Source: Anolis carolinensis (lineage: Eukaryota). From it: a stretch of 64,000 nucleotides of DNA. A model generated the notes under the pieces. The model saw only the letters and a list, made by a program, of their open reading frames with translations. It searched no databases and was not told the DNA's origin. Below, piece by piece: positions 20,891 to 41,450 of the stretch (the first letter of the stretch is position 1; the number at the start of each line of letters is the position of its first letter). The position numbers and the translations under genes were made by a program. Where the stretch lies: NCBI RefSeq assembly GCF_035594765.1, contig NC_085843.1, positions 21,219,955 through 21,283,954 of the forward strand. The letters run 5' to 3'.

Positions 20891-21487
20891 TTAAGAAATC
20901 ATAGGTAGAGGTGATAATTTTTGGGTGTATGTGCTGAAAATATTTGCTTACTAGGCTTGATCGATCCACGAAAAATTTGATTCTAAACTCGTTTCAAAAC
21001 TAGAGGGGGGCAGCTTTTCGTTTCTGATGGTATTTCCGAATTTGGCCCCCCAAAAAATTCGAAATTAACGAAAATTCGTTATTTTCTAAATTAATTCGTT
21101 AATGGCGGACGTGCATGCGCAATTCCCAAAAACAGCACAGAGGGAGAGGACTTTACAGGACTCTCCAACCCTCATTTTTTGAGTGATCTTCTTCCAACTT
21201 GGTACAGTGGTAGAACACATTTAACACTGATAGCTCACCAAAATTTGGAACGTTTCCCTTATCCTCTGATTTTTGGCGAATTTTCATAGCTTTTATAATA
21301 AACCATTTTTTAATTGCAGAAATCTGTTCCTGGTTTGAAAGTCTTATTTCCTGTTAAATTGGGTTGTCTTTACTGTGAAAGTCATTGTTCTACTTCAGAA
21401 ACTTTGTTTTTGTGGCTGAAACTTTGTTAAATTGGTGTGTGTGTGATATATACTGTGTATATATAATATATATATAGTCCCTGCATA

Positions 21488-21530
<43 letters not shown>

Positions 21531-21532
<2 letters not shown>

Positions 21533-21860
21533 GGTAAAGGTAAAGGTATCCCTTGACGTTAAGTTCAGTCATGTCTGACTCTGGGGGTTGGTGCTCATCT
21601 CCTTTTCTAAGCCCAAGAGCCAGTGTTGTCCATAGACACCTCCAAGGTCATGTGGCCGGCATGACTACATGGAGTGCCATTACCTTCCCGCCAGAGCGGT
21701 ACCTATTGATCTACTCACATTGGCATGTTTTCAAGCTGCTAGGTTGGCAGAAGCTGGAGCTAACAGCGGGCACTCACTCTGCTCCCGGGATTTGAACCTG
21801 GGACCTTTCGGTCTGCAAGTTCAGCAGCTCAGTGCTTTAACACACTTCGCCATCGGGGCT
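21531..21860 (-). mobile_element. Sauria SINE nested in the hAT element
   Basis: Full SINE body and (AGGTAA)n tail beside a (TG)n tract at 21489-21528. Confidence 0.92.
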
Positions 21861-21966
21861 CATGTATATATAATATACATACACATACACACAATGTGGA
21901 GAATATGTGGAAAGGTAGATAGATAAGTTGGGAGCCACAGCGAAGGCACCTTCCTGGGAGCAAGGT

Positions 21967-22017
<51 letters not shown>

Positions 22018-22159
22018 CCCTTACAATATCCAAGATGGCTCACTGCTACAGAATCTTGGGAGGTTTAGTTTGATATGGTACCATTATTGGCAGAGAAAGC
22101 TAAGCTGTAGGAGTTGAAATCCAATCATTTATCCTCCCTATAGAATCAATTTTATATGC

Positions 22160-22447
22160 ATTTTTAGCTACAGAAAAGCTAAAATCAGGACAGTAAAAGA
22201 ACAACACCCAGAAAATGGGAATTCCAGACAGGAAACAATCAGGGCCAGCTAATACCTCCCAACAAAGGATTCCCCCAGGTAGGAAGCAGCCAGGCTTTGA
22301 AGCTGCAAGGCTATTCAATGCTAATCAAGGTGACCAATTGCAACATTCACACTTGCCTCCCACAGACAAGAGTTCTTTCTCCCACCCTGGACCTTCCACA
22401 GATATATAAACCCCACTTGCCTAGCTTCGCACAGACGTCAAAACCTC
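22160..22447 (+). mobile_element. Penelope pLTR/3' region fragment nested in the hAT element
   Basis: AAAATCAGGACAG...AACAATCAGGGCCAGCTAA...GATATATAAACCCCACTTGCCTAG matches the squamate Penelope terminal repeat as I remember it. Confidence 0.7.
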
Positions 22448-22665
22448 ACCGCCGGGCCCCTCTCTGTCTCTCTCAGTCTCTCCATTCCTGGCTCCATCCG
22501 CCGCCTTCCCGCCTCACAGAGAGACACCAGGCCTGAGCTGAGGCGAGGCGGCGGCGGCGGCGGCCATTTCCCCCCTCCGTCTTCCTCCTCCTCCTCGGCC
22601 TCCTTCCCCCTCGCCCCCTCCCATTGGCTGAGCCCGTGACGCCCCTTTTGCTGAGGGGCAAAAGG
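22448..22665 (-). promoter_or_regulatory. CpG-island promoter/first-exon-like cassette inside the hAT element
   Basis: On the minus strand, in order: CGTCA, AGCCAATGGG (CCAAT box), GGGGGCGAGG (GC-box-like), AAATGGCCGCC (YY1-like, ATG), (GCC)n, then GCG|GTGAGG. Confidence 0.55.
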
Positions 22666-24466
22666 AAAGGGCCTGAATGGTGGGAGTTTGGGTGATTTGC
22701 AAAAGCTGTTTTTTCCTAACGAAAAAAACGACGACATAACGAAAAACGGCCTCTCGCGATTCGAAACCGCGATATCCAGACGTGTGGACAACCAATGCTT
22801 CAAAATTGCTTCAAAACAAACGAAAATAACGAATTAATAACGGTTAACGGGGAAAACGAATTATTTGAGCAAGCCTATTGCTTACTATAGTGCAATTCTA
22901 GTGCCTATTGGCTTGGAGTTAAATATTGTTCCCAAATGTAAAGTAGCTATGAATAGGTACAAAGTAGCCTTGTTCAAACATATAGCTCAATTTTGCTGGC
23001 TTATGTGATCCTCCCACATCACATTCTTAGTATGTATTGAGGGGAAATCTAGACACAACATATATATCAGTGTCTCCAAATTAGCCCTGTTGTTCAGCCT
23101 CTCTTAGAAACAGTTGCCAAACTCCAGCTCTAGTAATAGTTCATTGCTTACTCCTGGATAAATTTGTCCTTCAAATGTTTCTAGGTATATTATCTCATGA
23201 ATACCCTTCAGCATAAACAAGGACAGCAATGCCAGTATTTTGAATCTTTATCTTGTAATGACTTCCATCATTTTTTAAACTTCCAAGCAAAGTAATTTGA
23301 TCCACCCTAGTGATGTGCAGAATGAAGCTTCTCTGCATATCACTAGCATGGATCAAATTGCTTTGCATTGAAGTAAGAAAAGAAATCTCACAGTTTTCAG
23401 GATTTTGACCTGACCATTAGGAATTCTCCAACTCCCACCAAGAGATCTTGTTTTCAAGGTATGTCCAAGACTCCAAGAACTTCTTTCACTATCCTTTCTG
23501 TGGGTTTAATAAAATGTCTCTATGGAAAATAGTACCTTTCTTTTTGTCAAGATAAGCAAACACATAGAGAGAACAAACACTAGAAGGTATGGCAACTGAT
23601 CGTACAGATACAAACAATTCATCCGACATTCTCTAAATTTATTTTTTATTTTGATTAAGCCATAATTCAAATTCAATGACAACTAATTGATTTATGGAAC
23701 TCATTTTCATTCCCATTTCAACATGTCCCACAAGAGATTTTGTTATTCTGTGAAATCCTCTTTTCACTGATCTTGAAATTCATTGAGGATTTTTCTTGGG
23801 CAAAAACATGCATTCGATCTTGAACTTTGCTTGAGGTGAACTCTTGCCTTTTCACCTCTTGAATCTTAGTTCAACTGTGCAAAGGTGAGTGTACTATATA
23901 AAAAAGTCAGATATATTCTAAACTCATTGCTTCTGAGAGTTCAAAAGTTGTATTTAAAAAAAATGCCTTATGTAAATGAAAAACAAATCTTCCTAAAGCC
24001 TAAGCTTGTCAGTTTGGTTTAAGTATTTCCGGTAAGATTAATTGAAACAGCATTATTGGGGGAAATGCAACCCACACACATTTACCTCAGAAGACATAAC
24101 CACAGTTCTTATTTCATGCACAAACAGCTAACATAAAAAGGTCTGGCATGTTCCTTCCTAAAAGCAATACAGCAGCTAAAGGCTATGTTTTTCAGAACAG
24201 CATGCCTGGAGTTAGTTATGATACAACTCCAATTAACATTAATGAGATCTGTGATAATAATCGTTCTTGCATGGTTGTTAAAATGCACCTCCAAGGTCTA
24301 TAGAGGACATGATCAGCTTAGGCAAAATACACTTAAAATAAACATGAAACAGCTATACAATGGGAATGATATCCTCATTACCAAATTTTGTAGAACTGTG
24401 CATTACTTAGAATAATACAACTATGCCAAGAAATAATGTGTGTGTGTGTGTGAGTATGTGTATGGC

Positions 24467-25747
24467 TAGGCATGTGCAATCCATGAAAAAAATGGTTCAA
24501 TGCTTGCTTCAAAAGTAAGGGGTGCTGGTGCTTTGTTTTCTAAAGTCATTTCCGAATTTTGAAGCAAAAAATTCAAAACTTTCAAAAAATTTGGAATCTT
24601 CGTATGTACCTCGATAATGGCGGATGCGCATGCACATGAAGGAAAACATTATTGTCAATAGGGAAACTTGAGGGGCTTCTCTCTCCCTCATTTTTTGAGC
24701 TATCCTAATGAAATTTGCTACAGTGGTAGAACACATTTACCACTGTTAGCTCACCAAATCTAAGAATGTTTGACTTATCCTCAGATTTTTGGTGAATTTT
24801 CAAAGTTTTTATTAAAACATTTTTAATAATAACAAAAATCTGTTCCTGGTTTGGAAGTGTTATTTCCTGTTTCATTGGGTTGTTTCTACTTTGAAAGTCA
24901 TTGTTCTACTTCAGAAACTTTGTTTTTGTGGCTGAAACTTTGTTAAATTTATGGACAGAGACTCAACAAACCATAATGTGCTAATTTTTATAGGACCATG
25001 TCCCTTGTGAAAAGACAAAGTTTTGGCAGTGTAATAAAGTTTTGCCATACTTTTATGACAGAACCAATTAGGAAATGTCATTTATCAATAAGGAACAGAA
25101 ATCATAGCACACCATCAAATCACTCCTGACAGATAGCCATCAGCCTCTGAATAAGGAAATCTGTTCCTGGTTTGAAAGTGTTATTTCCTATTTCATTGGG
25201 TTTTCTGGGGCAGAAAGTGTGTGACTTGCCCAAGATCACCCAGTAGGTTTCCATGGCTGAGTGGGGAATCAAGCCACAATTGTAGTCCAACTCTCAAACC
25301 ACTACACTACACCATGCTTAAGAGCTCCATAAAAACCAACCAGGAAGGGAAGGGGGTTTTCTCTCCTGGATAGCAGCGGGTTTAAGAGTCCCATAGAAAC
25401 CAACCAGGAAGGGAAGGGGGTTTTCTCTCCTGAATAGCAGCGGGTTTAAGAGCCGCATAGAAACCAACCAAGAAAGAAAGGGGGTCTTCTCTCCTGGATA
25501 GCCAGGAGAGAAAACGCTCCAGGCTTGGTTTCTATGGGGCTCTTAAACCCCAATGCTAGCCAGGAGATTGGTTGAATTAAAACACTTTCTCATATAGCCG
25601 AAGGTATTCTGAGGCATGGGCGCCACAACGCTTCGAATTGGAAGGGTAATTTGAAGTGCCAAACTACCTCAGAACCCCGTTCGGAACCCAAAATATATAC
25701 AATTTTATTACGATTAACAACGATTCCGATTAATTCACCCATGCCTA
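24467..25747. mobile_element. Second composite non-autonomous hAT, related to 20952-22877
   Basis: TIRs TAGGCATGTG / CCCATGCCTA; 24500-24950 is collinear with 21000-21432; contains CR1 and SINE pieces and 64-bp repeats; TSD not clean. Confidence 0.8.
25319..25567. repeat. Three 64-bp tandem units plus one inverted unit
   Basis: TAAGAG at 25319, 25383 and 25447; reverse-complement unit at about 25500-25567. Confidence 0.9.
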
Positions 25748-31132: not shown

Positions 31133-31632
31133 TCTGCCCAGTTTGCCCAGTTTGCCCAGAGTTCAGAAGTCCAGCGGAACCCAGAGGAACCCAGAAGGAC
31201 CAGTGACTCCAGCTGAACCAGCACCAGAGCCTGCTACTCCAGAACCTGTGACTGTGCCAGAACCAGACCAGTTTCCAGTGTACCCAGTATACTGTCCAGT
31301 CTGTGTGGAGCCAGAAGTCCGGGAGCTGAGTGGTGAGCTGAGCCGTGTGCTGTGTGAAGGAAGCCATTCTGGTGAGCCGTGCTTAAGCTGCTTGAGGGGG
31401 AGAGTTTTGTCTTCGGAGGAAGCAAACTTTGTCCGTAGCAGCAGAAAAACCGTGGTTTGCAGCGGAGCGTGCTGAGCTTCAGAGAAATTTACGAAGCGAA
31501 CGTGCAAAGGAAAAGCCATAAAAAGCCATAAATTCCTGTGAAGGTGAGGACTGCCGGGCTGTGCTGAGCGTGTGTGTCGTCAGCTGCTAAAGGCTTTATC
31601 TCGGGGAATCGAGGGTCCTCCAGGAAGGCAGA

Positions 31633-33641
31633 ATGGCAAGTTCAAATCCTTTGACTGTTTTTGGTAAATTAAATGACAGAAATTATAAGGAGTGGAGTAT
31701 TTATGTGAAGCATCTGTTAGTCAGAGAAGGACTACAAAACACTATATTAGGAACGGAACAAGACGCAGTGAAAAATGGGAGAGGACTGGCAACATTGGTT
31801 TTGAGTTTAATGCCAAGTCAGTTGGTTCATGTGCAGAATTTGCAAACTGCACAGGAGGTATGGAATGTGTTGAAGCAAGAGCATCAGAGACAGAGTACTC
31901 TTGGAAAAATGATTTGGACTAAACGCCTTTATAGAACTACATTGGAAGGAGCAGATGTGAGGCAACATGTGAAGAGGATGAAAGATTTGTTTATTGAATG
32001 CCAAAACAGAGGTGTTCAGATTGCTAAAGAGCAACAGGCTTATATTATGATGTCCAGCTTAACTGCTGATTGGGATCATCTGTTGCATTCCTTGCAAAAT
32101 GTGCCAGAAGGAGATCTGAGTCTGGATTTAGTGTGTTCCAGGATTTTGGAAGAAGCTGAACGTCTGGAGTTTGAGAGAGGAGCCTCGTGTGGGAGAAGTT
32201 ACCAGAGCGAGGGGGAGTCAACTCCAGAGATGCCAAGCCAGACAGCTGCTTGTGCGAGTGTGAGAGCTGTAAGGAGATGTTTTATTTGCAACAGGCCAGA
32301 CCATTTAGCAAGAAATTGCCAGAGCTGAGGAAGACATCAAGAGGACACCAATCCAGAGGTGGACACAAGAGGAGTGGACTGAACAATAATCCTGAGCCGA
32401 GAGATTTGATGGCTGCAAATGAAGATGGAAACAGCGAAAGAAGTAACAAATGGGTTTTGGACTCAGGTGCCACTCACCATATAACAAATGATATTTCTCT
32501 GTTGAGAGATGTACAAGATTTGGAAACAACAAATGTAACATTGGCTGATGGGTCATTTAAATGGTTTTCTAAATTTGGAACCTGTTATATTCCATGTTTG
32601 AAATTGCATTGGGAGAAAGTTTTGTATGTGCCAGAAATGAAGACAAATTTGTTAAGTGTAGCCACATTGACTGATCAACAGTTTAAAGTGTTCTTTAAAG
32701 GAATTTATTATGTTCGTGATAGGGAAGGAAAATTGATTGGCAAAGGAGTAAAAAGAAACAGAATGTATTAAATGTTTGAAAAAGTGAACAACATTGATGG
32801 AGAAAATGTAGAAGTTATGTGCGTAGGAGGTCAAATTCAACATGATCGTTCTCTGCATTTATTCCACCGAGTGATGGGTCATGCTAGTATGGAGACATTA
32901 AAGAAGACACTCAATTTGTGCCCTAATCATAAAATGGAGTCATGTAACTATGATTTAGATTGTGCCATATGTAATGAAGTGAAGGAAGATCCTGTAAAAT
33001 TTTACGAGAGATCTAAAATAAGTGTTGATGGCATGTTTGAAAAGGCACATGTACATATTGAGGGACCTTTTGACAAAAGTACTGGTGGATCTAAATATAT
33101 GATGCTTGTTGTAGAAAGAATGAGCAGATTTGGTTATGCATATTTCTTTGCAAACTTATCAGAAGCAACTAAAAAATTGAATGATTGGCTAAATTTGGTA
33201 GAAAATGTGTATGAAAAGAAATTGGACACTTTAATAATTGACAAAGGTGCAGGAGTCTGTGGCAGTGAATTTAAAGCATTGTTAAGGTCAAAGAATATTA
33301 ATTGGATTGAAATTGAACAAATGAAAGGTGAAGAAGGTGTTGCTGAAAAAAGAGCACAACTTTTAAATGTGATGAAATTGTGTATGTTTAAAGACAGCCA
33401 TATAGCTAACAATTATTGGCCAGAAGTGTTACACACGTGTAATTATTTGACAAACAGGCTATGGGATGAGTGTGTGCAAGACATTCCTTTTCGTAAAATG
33501 TATGGTCATGTACCAAATTACAAGTTTTTGAGAATATTTGGCCAGAGAGCAAATATAGTCATCCCAGCCAGTGAGAGAGCAAATAAGAAAGAAAAATACA
33601 AAGAGATGACGTTTATTGGGTACAGTAAAAAATCTTCTTGA
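31633..33641 (+). pseudogene. Copia gag-protease-integrase, disrupted; RT/RNaseH absent
   Basis: Gag LNDRNYKEW, zinc knuckle CFICNRPDHLARNC, protease WVLDSGATHH, pre-integrase FHRVMGH..CAIC, core ..GVAE..YWPE..YLTNR..LRIFG..FIGY; frame change near 32325 and in-frame TAA at 32769-32771. Confidence 0.92.
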
Positions 33642-38682: not shown

Positions 38683-39003
38683 CAGAGAGTAGGATCTTCT
38701 GGGGAGGCCCTGCTTTCAGTCCCACCTCCTTCGCAAGCACCGTTGGTGGGGATAAGTGACAGGGCCTTCTCAATGGTGGCCCCTTGGCTGTGGAACTCCC
38801 TCTCCAGTGATATTTGATCAGATTCTTCCTTTCCAGCCTTCAGAAAGAAAGTAAAAACCTGGCTATGGCTGGTGAGTGCCTTCGAATAGTGAGTGTAGTA
38901 CAATGAACGAATGTAGAATTGTGCAATGACAACTGGAATGGCTCTGGATTACGATGTTGGACTCCATGGTGTCAATATTTGATGTAATGCTTAGATGTTT
39001 AAT
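38683..39003 (+). mobile_element. L2 3' fragment interrupted by Penelope
   Basis: AGGGCCTTCTCAATGGTGGCCCCTTGGCTGTGGAACTCCCTC (RAFS.VAP.LWNSL). Confidence 0.8.
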
Positions 39004-39004
39004 T

Positions 39005-41450
39005 GGGGAGGGGCAGTGGTGCTACTAAATAGAATTGACTATGTTAAGGAAGTAGAGAGGCATCTTTCTAATACTCTGTTCTATAAATGTATTCCTCAAG
39101 ATCCCATTAATAAAATTAAATCCCTCATTCGCATAGTTTGTACTGAAGGTCTCTCATTGGGATATATCTCATTGCAGACATATGAGTTCCTTCAGAATCA
39201 ATTCCCAAGAACACCAGTATTTTATGTTCTGCCTAAAATCCACAAGGGAACCATTCCTCCTCCAGGGAGACCTATTGTTTCAGGTACTGCATCTATTTTG
39301 GAACCTATAGCTCAATTTATTGACCATTTCTTACAACCCTTTGTACCATTAAATACATCATTCATCAAAGATACTAAACACTTTATCAATATAGTAGAAG
39401 CTCTTACTATACCTGAGCGAGCCATACTTATGACCTTAGATATTGAAGCTCTTTATACCAATATTCCATTAGATGAAGCTAGGTCAGTGGTTAAAGACAT
39501 ACTTGATACATGCAAATCCTTGGTTCCTCCTACCCACTTCCTAATGGACCTCCTAGACATTGTGTTAGAATATAACTATTTTAGTTTTGATAAACAATTT
39601 TATTTGCAAACTTTTGGGATAGCCATGGGCAGTCCTCTTGCGCCCTCTATTGCCAATTTATTTGTTTCACATTTAGAAAGTAAATTTATTTTCAATACTA
39701 CTAACAATCCATTTTTTTCGGATATTTTTTATTTCGGAAGATTTTTGGATGATATATTTATTGTTATGAGTTCACATGCCGTAGCAGACCAATTCTATAG
39801 GTGGATTAATACACTTCATAAACATATGACATTTACAAAACACTATAGCCATACCCATATTAACTTCTTGGAGGTCATGGTCTTTAAAAATGGTCAAAAA
39901 CTATTAGTAAAAAATTATAGTAAACCAACAGTAAGAATTTTATCCTACATTTTTCCAGTTTTCATCATCATTTTCTTAAATCCAATTTACCATTCTCACA
40001 GTTTCTAAGATTAAAACGGAATTCTAGCACTCAAGAGGACTTCGAATCTACGGCAGGAATCCTGAAAAAACAACTCAGAGAAAGAGGATACCCTAATAGG
40101 ATACTCAACACAGCCATGAGTAAAGCCAACTCCATCAATAGAAGTGAGCTACTACAGGAACAACCAAAGAAATGTAATAACCGTATAATTTGGCCTCTGA
40201 CCTTGACACAATATTCATCTAAAATTTCTAGGATTATTTCAAAACACTGGCATTTATTAGAAGACATTCCTGGTTGCCAAAACAAACCTATAATTGCACA
40301 TAAAAGATCTAGAAATTTAAGAGATCTTATGATCCATTCAGAATACAACTCTCCTACTACATTCCATAAACCTACCACTAAGGGTCACACTAGCTGTGGC
40401 CACTGCAACTGTTGTCAACAATCACTTAAGGGCAAAATATACTCTCATCCAACACTTAAAATTAATATCACATTGCAACATTTGACAACATGTTCTACTG
40501 ATAATGTAGTGTACGTACTACAATGCCCATGTAAACTACTTTATATCGGAATAACTACCAGACCCCTTAAAACTAGGATAAGCGAACATCGTTCACGCAT
40601 AAGAAATGGGTCCACTGACTCTTCACTGTATGTACACTTTAACGAAAAAGCCCATCTGTACTATAGCTTTAAATTTTGCGCTTTGGAAAAAGTATTGCCC
40701 ATACCAAATACAGATGTAAAAAAACTTCTTCTACAAAGAGAATCCTTTTGGATTTTTAAACTACAAACACTATTTCCTCAGGGGCTAAATGATAGAATCG
40801 AATACACCTGTTTTCTGTAATATGTTCTTTACTTAAGAGGCATCCTGGAAATCTTTCATTTGCTCGTTATAGAGCTCCACTTCAAACAGAGCCGGTATCA
40901 TTGATAAGAATGTGAGTAGAGAGGTGTGTTTTTATTATATTGTTTATCATAACCTTTCCTTAGTAACGTTAATATGGGAGTTTCATATATCTATTGTGTA
41001 TGTTATTTTTACTCCTTTATTTAGCATACTGAGTACAATTTGATTAAAACACAACACCCGAGGAAGTGAAAACGAAACAAGGGGAACATTGTTGTGTGTA
41101 TATCATTTCCTGGCATTGCTATCTACACGAAGAATTCCTTTGAACGTGTATCATTTCTTGGCATTGCAAACCAAAAGAAGAATTCCTTTGAACATAAAAA
41201 CTATTATTTTGGAGACTGAAAAACTTTACTTCAAGTGATAAGGACCAAAGACTCCACGCAACTCCAGGAAACATATTGACTGGTTGTCTCTTTATGTCCT
41301 TCAATAATATATGGTGTTAAGATTATAACATGAAATTGTACCATTGTGGATGATATTTTGAAAGCTATTATTTTGATGAGAAATATTCTAATATAGAGCT
41401 GTTAGAATATTGAGTTGTATTATAATTTGTGGGAATTTGTAAGTGTATAT
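39005..41450 (+). mobile_element. Penelope-like element, Neptune-type (RT + Cys linker + GIY-YIG), 5'-truncated
   Basis: GGAVV, FYVLPKIHK, PGRPIVS, LDIEALYTNIP, GIAMGS, RFLDDIF; 1-nt deletion at about 39930 (KPT[D]KN); CGHCNC linker; VVYVLQCPCKLLYIGIT..RISEH..HF..RESFWI..GLN; stop at 40820. The 3' boundary is approximate. Confidence 0.95.
41054..41097 (+). ncRNA. Minimal type-I hammerhead ribozyme-like motif (variant core)
   Basis: Stem I ACAC/GUGU, core CCGAGGA (for CUGANGA), stem II GU-GAAA-AC, GAAA, stem III ACAA/UUGU, GUU triplet; located in the PLE pLTR. Confidence 0.7.

What the first reader, a model, noticed from the sequence alone, without database searches (positions are those of the whole stretch)
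22448..22665. Captured housekeeping-type promoter and first exon inside a DNA transposon (Pack-TE-like)
This is the only clear CpG island in 64 kb. On the minus strand it reads CRE half-site (CGTCA), CCAAT box, GC box, purine-rich spacer, YY1-type AAATGGCCGCC with (GCC)n (MAAAAAASPQL..), and ends at a donor-like GCG|GTGAGG exactly at the Penelope junction (GAGG may be Penelope-derived microhomology). That order mimics a vertebrate TATA-less promoter plus exon 1. Inference: host-gene transduplication by a hAT element, which would disperse portable promoters. This is well known for plant Pack-MULEs and rarely shown in vertebrates.
Basis: partly seen in the sequence, partly recalled or inferred. 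Interest (0 to 1): 0.72.

Follow-up and report, generated by a model that had tools for sequence, protein, structure and literature searches.

The report
Transposon spreading a zinc-finger gene promoter
A lizard cut-and-paste transposon carries the promoter region and first exon of the host's clustered zinc-finger genes and has copied them to about 1,200 places in the genome, though most copies are likely methylated passengers rather than working promoters.

Summary
Capture is real, and the source is found. Window 20952-22877 is a non-autonomous hAT (8-bp TSD) matching the published hobo-N group A of the green anole. Its 22444-22645 cargo is 80% identical to the 5' module of tandem C2H2 zinc-finger genes: 123 such sites, 90 of the 100 listed on three small contigs; 8 of 10 tested have a finger-array exon downstream. 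So the source is a gene family, not one housekeeping gene. The terminus-side junction occurs 1,233 times. Six of six autonomous elements lack the cargo. A second, older hAT family holds an overlapping piece of the same module. Corrections: the proposed donor is in 0 of 75 host promoters; the host donor is lost in 59 of 59 copies; the Penelope junction is a later 294-bp deletion. CpG decay (22/36 against 5/108 columns) points to methylation. No exact parent and no promoter activity shown. Closest precedents: Pack-TIRs and bat HelibatN3. The scan had no look-alike on other DNA.

The parts
20944..20951 (.). 8-bp target-site duplication TTGCTTAC (left)
20952..21438 (-). hobo 3' terminus with TIR; shared with autonomous elements
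   Evidence: 92% to autonomous copy L236; 76% to the neighbouring related element
21540..21860 (.). nested SINE (label from Novick 2011 and recall; no library test); also in the autonomous elements
21861..22215 (.). AT-rich filler with (TAA)n at 21968-22015; source not found
   Evidence: no source among the non-family loci fetched
22216..22447 (.). Penelope fragment (label from Novick 2011 and recall), cut by the 294-bp deletion
22444..22447 (-). GAGG microhomology of the secondary deletion; this junction occurs 506 times
22444..22645 (-). captured proximal promoter and exon 1 of a tandem C2H2 zinc-finger gene (GC/CRE-like box, proximal CCAAT, purine run, AAATGGCCGCC); the host donor position maps to about 22457 and has no GT here
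   Evidence: 80% over 22457-22645 to L193
22448..22449 (-).
22646..22688 (-). arm of an unrelated common hairpin repeat between terminus and cargo
22685..22877 (-). hobo 5' terminus with TIR and CpG-rich subterminal repeats
   Evidence: 87% to autonomous copy L234
22878..22885 (.). 8-bp target-site duplication TTGCTTAC (right)

Best explanation
The element is a non-autonomous hobo-type hAT transposon whose 5' filler is the proximal promoter, first exon and intron start of a host C2H2 zinc-finger gene, amplified to about 1,200 copies and likely carried as a mostly methylated passenger. Inferred history: a break inside a hobo element was repaired by copying several templates (a hairpin repeat arm, the zinc-finger gene 5' end, a Penelope piece), which put host DNA where the autonomous element has its own upstream region. 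The progenitor then drifted (about 0.2 changes per column on its stem), lost the upstream CCAAT half of the promoter and the exon-1 donor, and was later mobilised in trans by the intact hobo transposase in a recent burst (copies differ by 0.5% in the cargo). Deletion derivatives, such as the window's 294-bp deletion, kept amplifying.
For: Shown: TIRs and perfect 8-bp TSDs in 41 of 43 copies with both ends, 42 distinct sites; 1,233 terminus-side junctions, control 0; 506 with the window's deletion; collinear homology with host modules, 74% over 333 bases, 80% for the window's part, shuffle control; finger-array exon downstream of 8 of 10 host modules tested (Pfam); a contig joins the nearest module's AG|GT to a canonical acceptor of a finger exon; no transposon termini in 73 host loci; cargo nested among host promoters, sister to four C18/C26 loci at 98/93 support; 0 of 6 autonomous elements carry it; CpG transitions in 22 of 36 CpG columns against 5 of 108 other C/G columns, P=3e-12, 55 copies; the window's own copy has two CpG transitions. 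Novick 2011 describes the family's Penelope-plus-SINE structure and 'extraneous DNA'.
Against: No near-identical parent found: 73 host loci compared out of 123 sites (23 were never listed), and two aimed patterns found none. The repair mechanism is inferred, not shown. Methylation is inferred from mutation pattern and is an average over germline history; it does not exclude active copies. CCAAT is intact in 58 of 59 copies and AAATGGC in 58 of 59, as expected of young copies, so the motifs are still available. Two host-like modules had no finger exon in the 9 and 19 kb read. The splice evidence is one contig from a run only guessed to be RNA.
Confidence: 0.72

Rival explanations
1. Same origin, but the cargo works: many copies are unmethylated, bind the factors of zinc-finger gene promoters and start transcripts into flanking DNA, using the new GCG|GTGAGG donor; this may also have helped the family spread.
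For: Core motifs and the donor-like site are intact in 58 of 59 copies; two hAT families hold the same module; bat Helitrons with promoters reached higher copy numbers (PMC4224331, passages); contigs from four runs guessed to be RNA hold the cargo.
Against: CpG decay; upstream half of the promoter and host donor lost; two contigs bridge the proposed donor unspliced and none of 15 listed joints (of 16) starts there; contigs also run from the hobo terminus into the cargo, upstream of any start; published group B hobo-N families reach similar copy numbers (their cargo not checked).
Confidence: 0.18
2. The segment is the native promoter of the autonomous hobo element or another transposon, and the zinc-finger genes took it from the transposon.
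For: The cargo sits in the sense direction just inside the 5' end, where the autonomous element has its own CCAAT-containing region.
Against: 0 of 6 autonomous elements match it; 0 of 73 host loci show hAT termini; host modules extend further upstream and are far more diverse than the cargo, which nests among them.
Confidence: 0.04
3. hobo took the cargo second-hand from another transposon that had already captured it, so there was one capture, not two.
For: An older hAT family carries an overlapping piece; the long stem and the missing parent fit an intermediate carrier.
Against: The hobo cargo includes intron sequence that the 8 second-family copies seen lack, and these hold about 300 upstream bases that hobo lacks; the one second-family copy in the tree does not join the hobo copies, though its long branch is unresolved.
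Confidence: 0.06

Closest known systems
hobo-N group A families (hobo-N1 to N6, N14) of Anolis carolinensis; Novick et al. 2011, PMC3014272 (section 8 part 1 read, plus passages)
   Same: TIR TAGGCTTG, 8-bp TSD, 1.9-2.4 kb, nested Penelope and SINE, a subfamily with a partial Penelope deletion, very low divergence, 15-kb autonomous partner.
   Different: The paper's main text has no 'promoter', 'zinc', 'exon', 'CpG' or 'UTR': the filler's source is not named. I measure the deletion as 294 bases, about 170 of them host-derived, against their 250 of Penelope; exact N number not assigned.
Pack-TIRs, e.g. Pack-hAT-N8_XT with the CAPSL 5' UTR; Tan et al. 2021, PMC8277862 (passages and one supplement row)
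   Same: TIR element with host 5' sequence, distinct TSDs, parent not linked to the element, GC-rich cargo, microhomology at junctions.
   Different: They found 4 multicopy cases among 370, the frog example with 3 copies, and 0 in lizard, whose library row lists 0 hAT families. Here 1,233 copies, a gene-family source, and no unambiguous parent.
HelibatN3 with the NUBPL promoter, 5' UTR, exon 1 and part of intron 1; as described in Thomas et al. 2014, PMC4224331 (passages)
   Same: Same kind of cargo, about a thousand copies, in a vertebrate.
   Different: Rolling-circle Helitron and a single-gene parent; here a cut-and-paste hAT and a clustered zinc-finger family, with the donor lost.
Plant Pack-MULEs (search listing, passages in PMC8277862, and recall)
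   Same: Non-autonomous TIR elements with GC-rich gene 5' fragments.
   Different: Mutator superfamily, plants; copy number per captured fragment usually low (recalled).

Membership tests
hAT non-autonomous element (hobo-N_AC) | 8-bp TSD | tested here: met
   41 of 43 copies
hAT non-autonomous element (hobo-N_AC) | TIR TAGGCTTG(M)TC and ends shared with an autonomous hAT transposase element | tested here: met
hAT non-autonomous element (hobo-N_AC) | group A structure: nested Penelope and SINE | tested here: met
   structure matches; the repeat labels were not checked against a library
hAT non-autonomous element (hobo-N_AC) | identity to a named Repbase consensus (which N number) | not testable with these tools
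   no repeat library
Pack-TIR | internal sequence homologous to host, non-transposon DNA | tested here: met
Pack-TIR | source loci not flanked by the element's termini | tested here: met
   0 of 73 host loci
Pack-TIR | absent from the autonomous element | tested here: met
   0 of 6
Pack-TIR | one unambiguous, highly similar parental copy | tested here: inconclusive
   best 74-80%; 73 of 123 sites compared
Pack-TIR | transposition after capture (multiple TSDs) | tested here: met
Functional CpG-island promoter | transcription start in the cargo | not testable with these tools
   only contigs were served; they cannot show starts
Functional CpG-island promoter | protection from germline methylation (no excess CpG decay) | tested here: not met
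   22 of 36 against 5 of 108 columns
Functional CpG-island promoter | host exon-1 splice donor kept | tested here: not met
   63 of 75 host promoters, 0 of 59 copies
KRAB zinc-finger genes (as the source) | tandem C2H2 array in clustered genes | tested here: met
KRAB zinc-finger genes (as the source) | KRAB or SCAN domain | tested here: inconclusive
   0 Pfam hits in 76 open frames of 62+ residues from 4 genes; a crude recalled motif found none; shorter frames not scanned

The most novel reading that the evidence does not exclude
hAT transposons in this lizard have twice captured the shared promoter of the tandem zinc-finger gene family, the gene class that in other vertebrates polices transposons; the young family spread it to ten times more sites than the host has, and a share of these act as live promoters or factor sinks that co-regulate new loci with the zinc-finger clusters or feed back on them.
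Probability: 0.17. Interest if true: 0.78.

Novelty: new member of a known kind. Interest (0 to 1): 0.5.

Why it matters
Multicopy gene capture by cut-and-paste transposons was found only four times among 370 animal cases, at a few copies, and not in lizard (PMC8277862). This is a case with about 1,200 near-identical copies, hidden in a family described in 2011, and its source is a zinc-finger gene family promoter that a second hAT family also holds. It gives a natural experiment: one promoter fragment at 1,200 young sites, with and without defined deletions, to ask when a moved CpG island stays unmethylated and whether promoter cargo helps an element spread. It is also a warning for annotation: masking this family may mask real zinc-finger promoters. 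If the copies are silent it is a neat but ordinary Pack-TIR.

Tried and rejected
DNA searches for a parent were swamped by copies (40 scored of 952 and of 1,000 candidates). A pattern for the cargo's 3' end without Penelope gave 28 sites: of 11 examined, 4 were family variants and 7 unrelated copies of a retrotransposon-like tail; 17 shared one small insertion and only 2 of these were examined. A pattern for a parent with an intact donor gave 0. The hairpin-repeat arm also occurs in the intron of the best-matching host gene; rejected as a clue because the repeat is common (711 exact matches). Expression: no RNA holder listed on record; 14 holders were only guessed to be RNA, all as contigs; depth was not used. 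In one search Penelope contigs swamped the tables (24 loose ends shown, 402 not), so the lack of a joint at the proposed donor is weak. KRAB search inconclusive. Literature: 8 searches listed no paper on zinc-finger promoter capture by anole hobo elements; subscription journals and Repbase notes were not searchable, and supplements of PMC3014272 and PMC4224331 were not read and may bear on this. Earlier scan notes: none by sequence; two unrelated hAT notes by words, not used.

Full report
Observation. The segment 22448-22665 is 69% G+C with CpG obs/exp 0.68 and is the strongest CpG island of the window; six weaker stretches had windows passing the usual thresholds. The segment lies in a 1,926-base element, 20952-22877, with TAGGCTTG ends and the 8-bp duplication TTGCTTAC.

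The element. A DNA search gave 40 scored copies at 99%. All 30 loci fetched are copies of the same composite; 3 of 30 are a longer form in which the GC-rich sequence continues past the proposed donor for about 170 bases before the Penelope piece. The window's form lacks 294 bases between two GAGG. Whole-genome pattern counts: 1,233 for the junction on the terminus side of the cargo and 506 for the window's deletion, controls 0. Of 43 copies with both ends in view, 41 have perfect 8-bp duplications, at 42 distinct sites. Ends, size, nested Penelope and SINE match the hobo-N group A families of Anolis carolinensis in Novick et al. (PMC3014272); that paper speaks of extraneous DNA and never mentions promoters, exons or zinc fingers in its main text. 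The species is inferred from that match.

The source. A pattern that demanded non-transposon letters upstream of the GC box found 8 sites; the relaxed host pattern found 123, and 90 of the 100 listed lie on contigs C18, C19 and C26. These modules have a second, upstream CCAAT box that the cargo lacks, and align with the cargo along its length. The best match is 74% over 333 bases of the long form (L087; 79 loci compared) and 80% over window 22457-22645; score 200 against a shuffled best of 37. Downstream on the same strand lies a tandem C2H2 exon in 8 of 10 modules tested, two of the eight being duplicates (Pfam); none was seen in 9 kb for one and 19 kb for another. No KRAB or SCAN hit was found in 76 frames from four genes, which does not exclude short exons.

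Direction. None of 73 host loci carries the hobo ends or those of the second family. In a tree of 79 rows the five hobo copies form one group on a stem of 0.2 changes per column, sister to four C18/C26 promoters (98/93), within the host diversity; the root is arbitrary and the backbone is open. Six autonomous elements (15-21 kb, transposase with BED and hAT dimerisation domains) share only the first 192 and the last 870 bases with the non-autonomous form and have a different CCAAT-containing region at that place. So the cargo is not hobo's native promoter. No near-identical parent was found: it may be among the 50 sites not in the host set, lost, or the progenitor drifted before the burst.

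The donor. One 333-base contig of run X11 matches the nearest host module exactly up to GAGAG|GT and continues with a sequence that occurs only at a finger exon behind a canonical acceptor, 52 kb downstream on C18 and on its C26 duplicate. This marks AG|GTCTG as the host exon-1 donor; it is in 63 of 75 host promoters and 0 of 59 copies, while GCG|GTGAGG is in 0 of 75 and 58 of 59. Two contigs bridge the proposed donor unspliced (records 6 and 23). The run type is a guess and the tables were cut, so use of the new site is neither shown nor excluded.

Activity. In 55 aligned copies the cargo differs from the majority by 0.5% on average; 22 of 36 CpG columns show transitions against 5 of 108 other C/G columns (P=3e-12; rare changes only, 20 against 4). 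Most of these copies were picked as best matches, which lowers divergence but should not create the CpG bias. This is the pattern of methylated DNA (established knowledge). The window's copy has two such changes. No run on record as RNA was listed.

Second family. Eight of the ten dispersed host-pattern sites are copies of another element of about 800-900 bases, mostly 76-86% alike, with ends of the hAT-N6/7/8 type; four have perfect 8-bp duplications, one has 7 of 8, and for three both ends were not found. It holds about 300 bases upstream of the CCAAT pair, and one copy holds exon 1 too. A pattern found 14 sites, a lower bound. The two cargos each have parts that the other lacks, which favours two captures.

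Mechanism, marked. Shown: composite structure, transposition, homology to zinc-finger gene 5' ends, loss of donor, CpG decay. Inferred: capture by template-switch repair inside a hobo element (as proposed for multicopy Pack-TIRs, PMC8277862), mobilisation in trans, methylation. Untested: promoter activity, any advantage to the element.

Comparison and verdict. It works like a Pack-TIR and meets every test but a single clear parent. Tan et al. found four multicopy cases among 370 and none in lizard; the nearest match in cargo and scale is the bat Helitron HelibatN3 (PMC4224331). Eight literature searches listed nothing on this cargo. New member of a known kind, unusual for its copy number and its zinc-finger source; interest 0.5.

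Noticed in passing
L075, L076, L083, L085, L112-L115 (C1, C3, C4, C5): A second, older non-autonomous hAT family (hAT-N6/7/8-type ends, 8-bp TSDs, at least 14 sites) carries the upstream part of the same zinc-finger promoter module.
   Followed up: partly
L193:772 to L201:7767 (C18:652272 to 704266): One contig joins exon 1 of one zinc-finger gene to a finger exon 52 kb downstream, passing a nearer 19-finger exon and another promoter: possible promoter sharing inside the cluster, or a haplotype difference.
   Followed up: partly
window 24467-25747: An older related hobo-like element without the cargo and without a matching TSD; shares about 480 bases of one end (76-78%) and holds a 64-base tandem repeat.
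   Followed up: partly
contigs C18 and C26 (L070/L074, L194/L196, L199/L200): C26 looks like a duplicate or alternative haplotype of part of C18 (96% over 2.9 kb; same finger frame start; same spacing), so the count of host promoters may be inflated.
   Followed up: no
L234-L251: Autonomous hobo elements of 15-21 kb with intact 830-842 residue frames are abundant (150 scored of 1,206 candidates) and have long minisatellite arrays beside the transposase.
   Followed up: partly
L193:955-1110 and many host loci: A retrotransposon-like 3' tail (L2-like, recalled) sits at the start of intron 1 in many of the zinc-finger paralogues, and its first bases were captured with the cargo.
   Followed up: partly
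L120, L123, L191, L201: The cluster genes may be two-exon C2H2 genes without KRAB or SCAN; none found in 76 frames.
   Followed up: partly
window 31591-33641 and 38995-40820: Frames that look like an LTR retrotransposon gag/pol and a Penelope-type reverse transcriptase with endonuclease (labels recalled, not tested).
   Followed up: no
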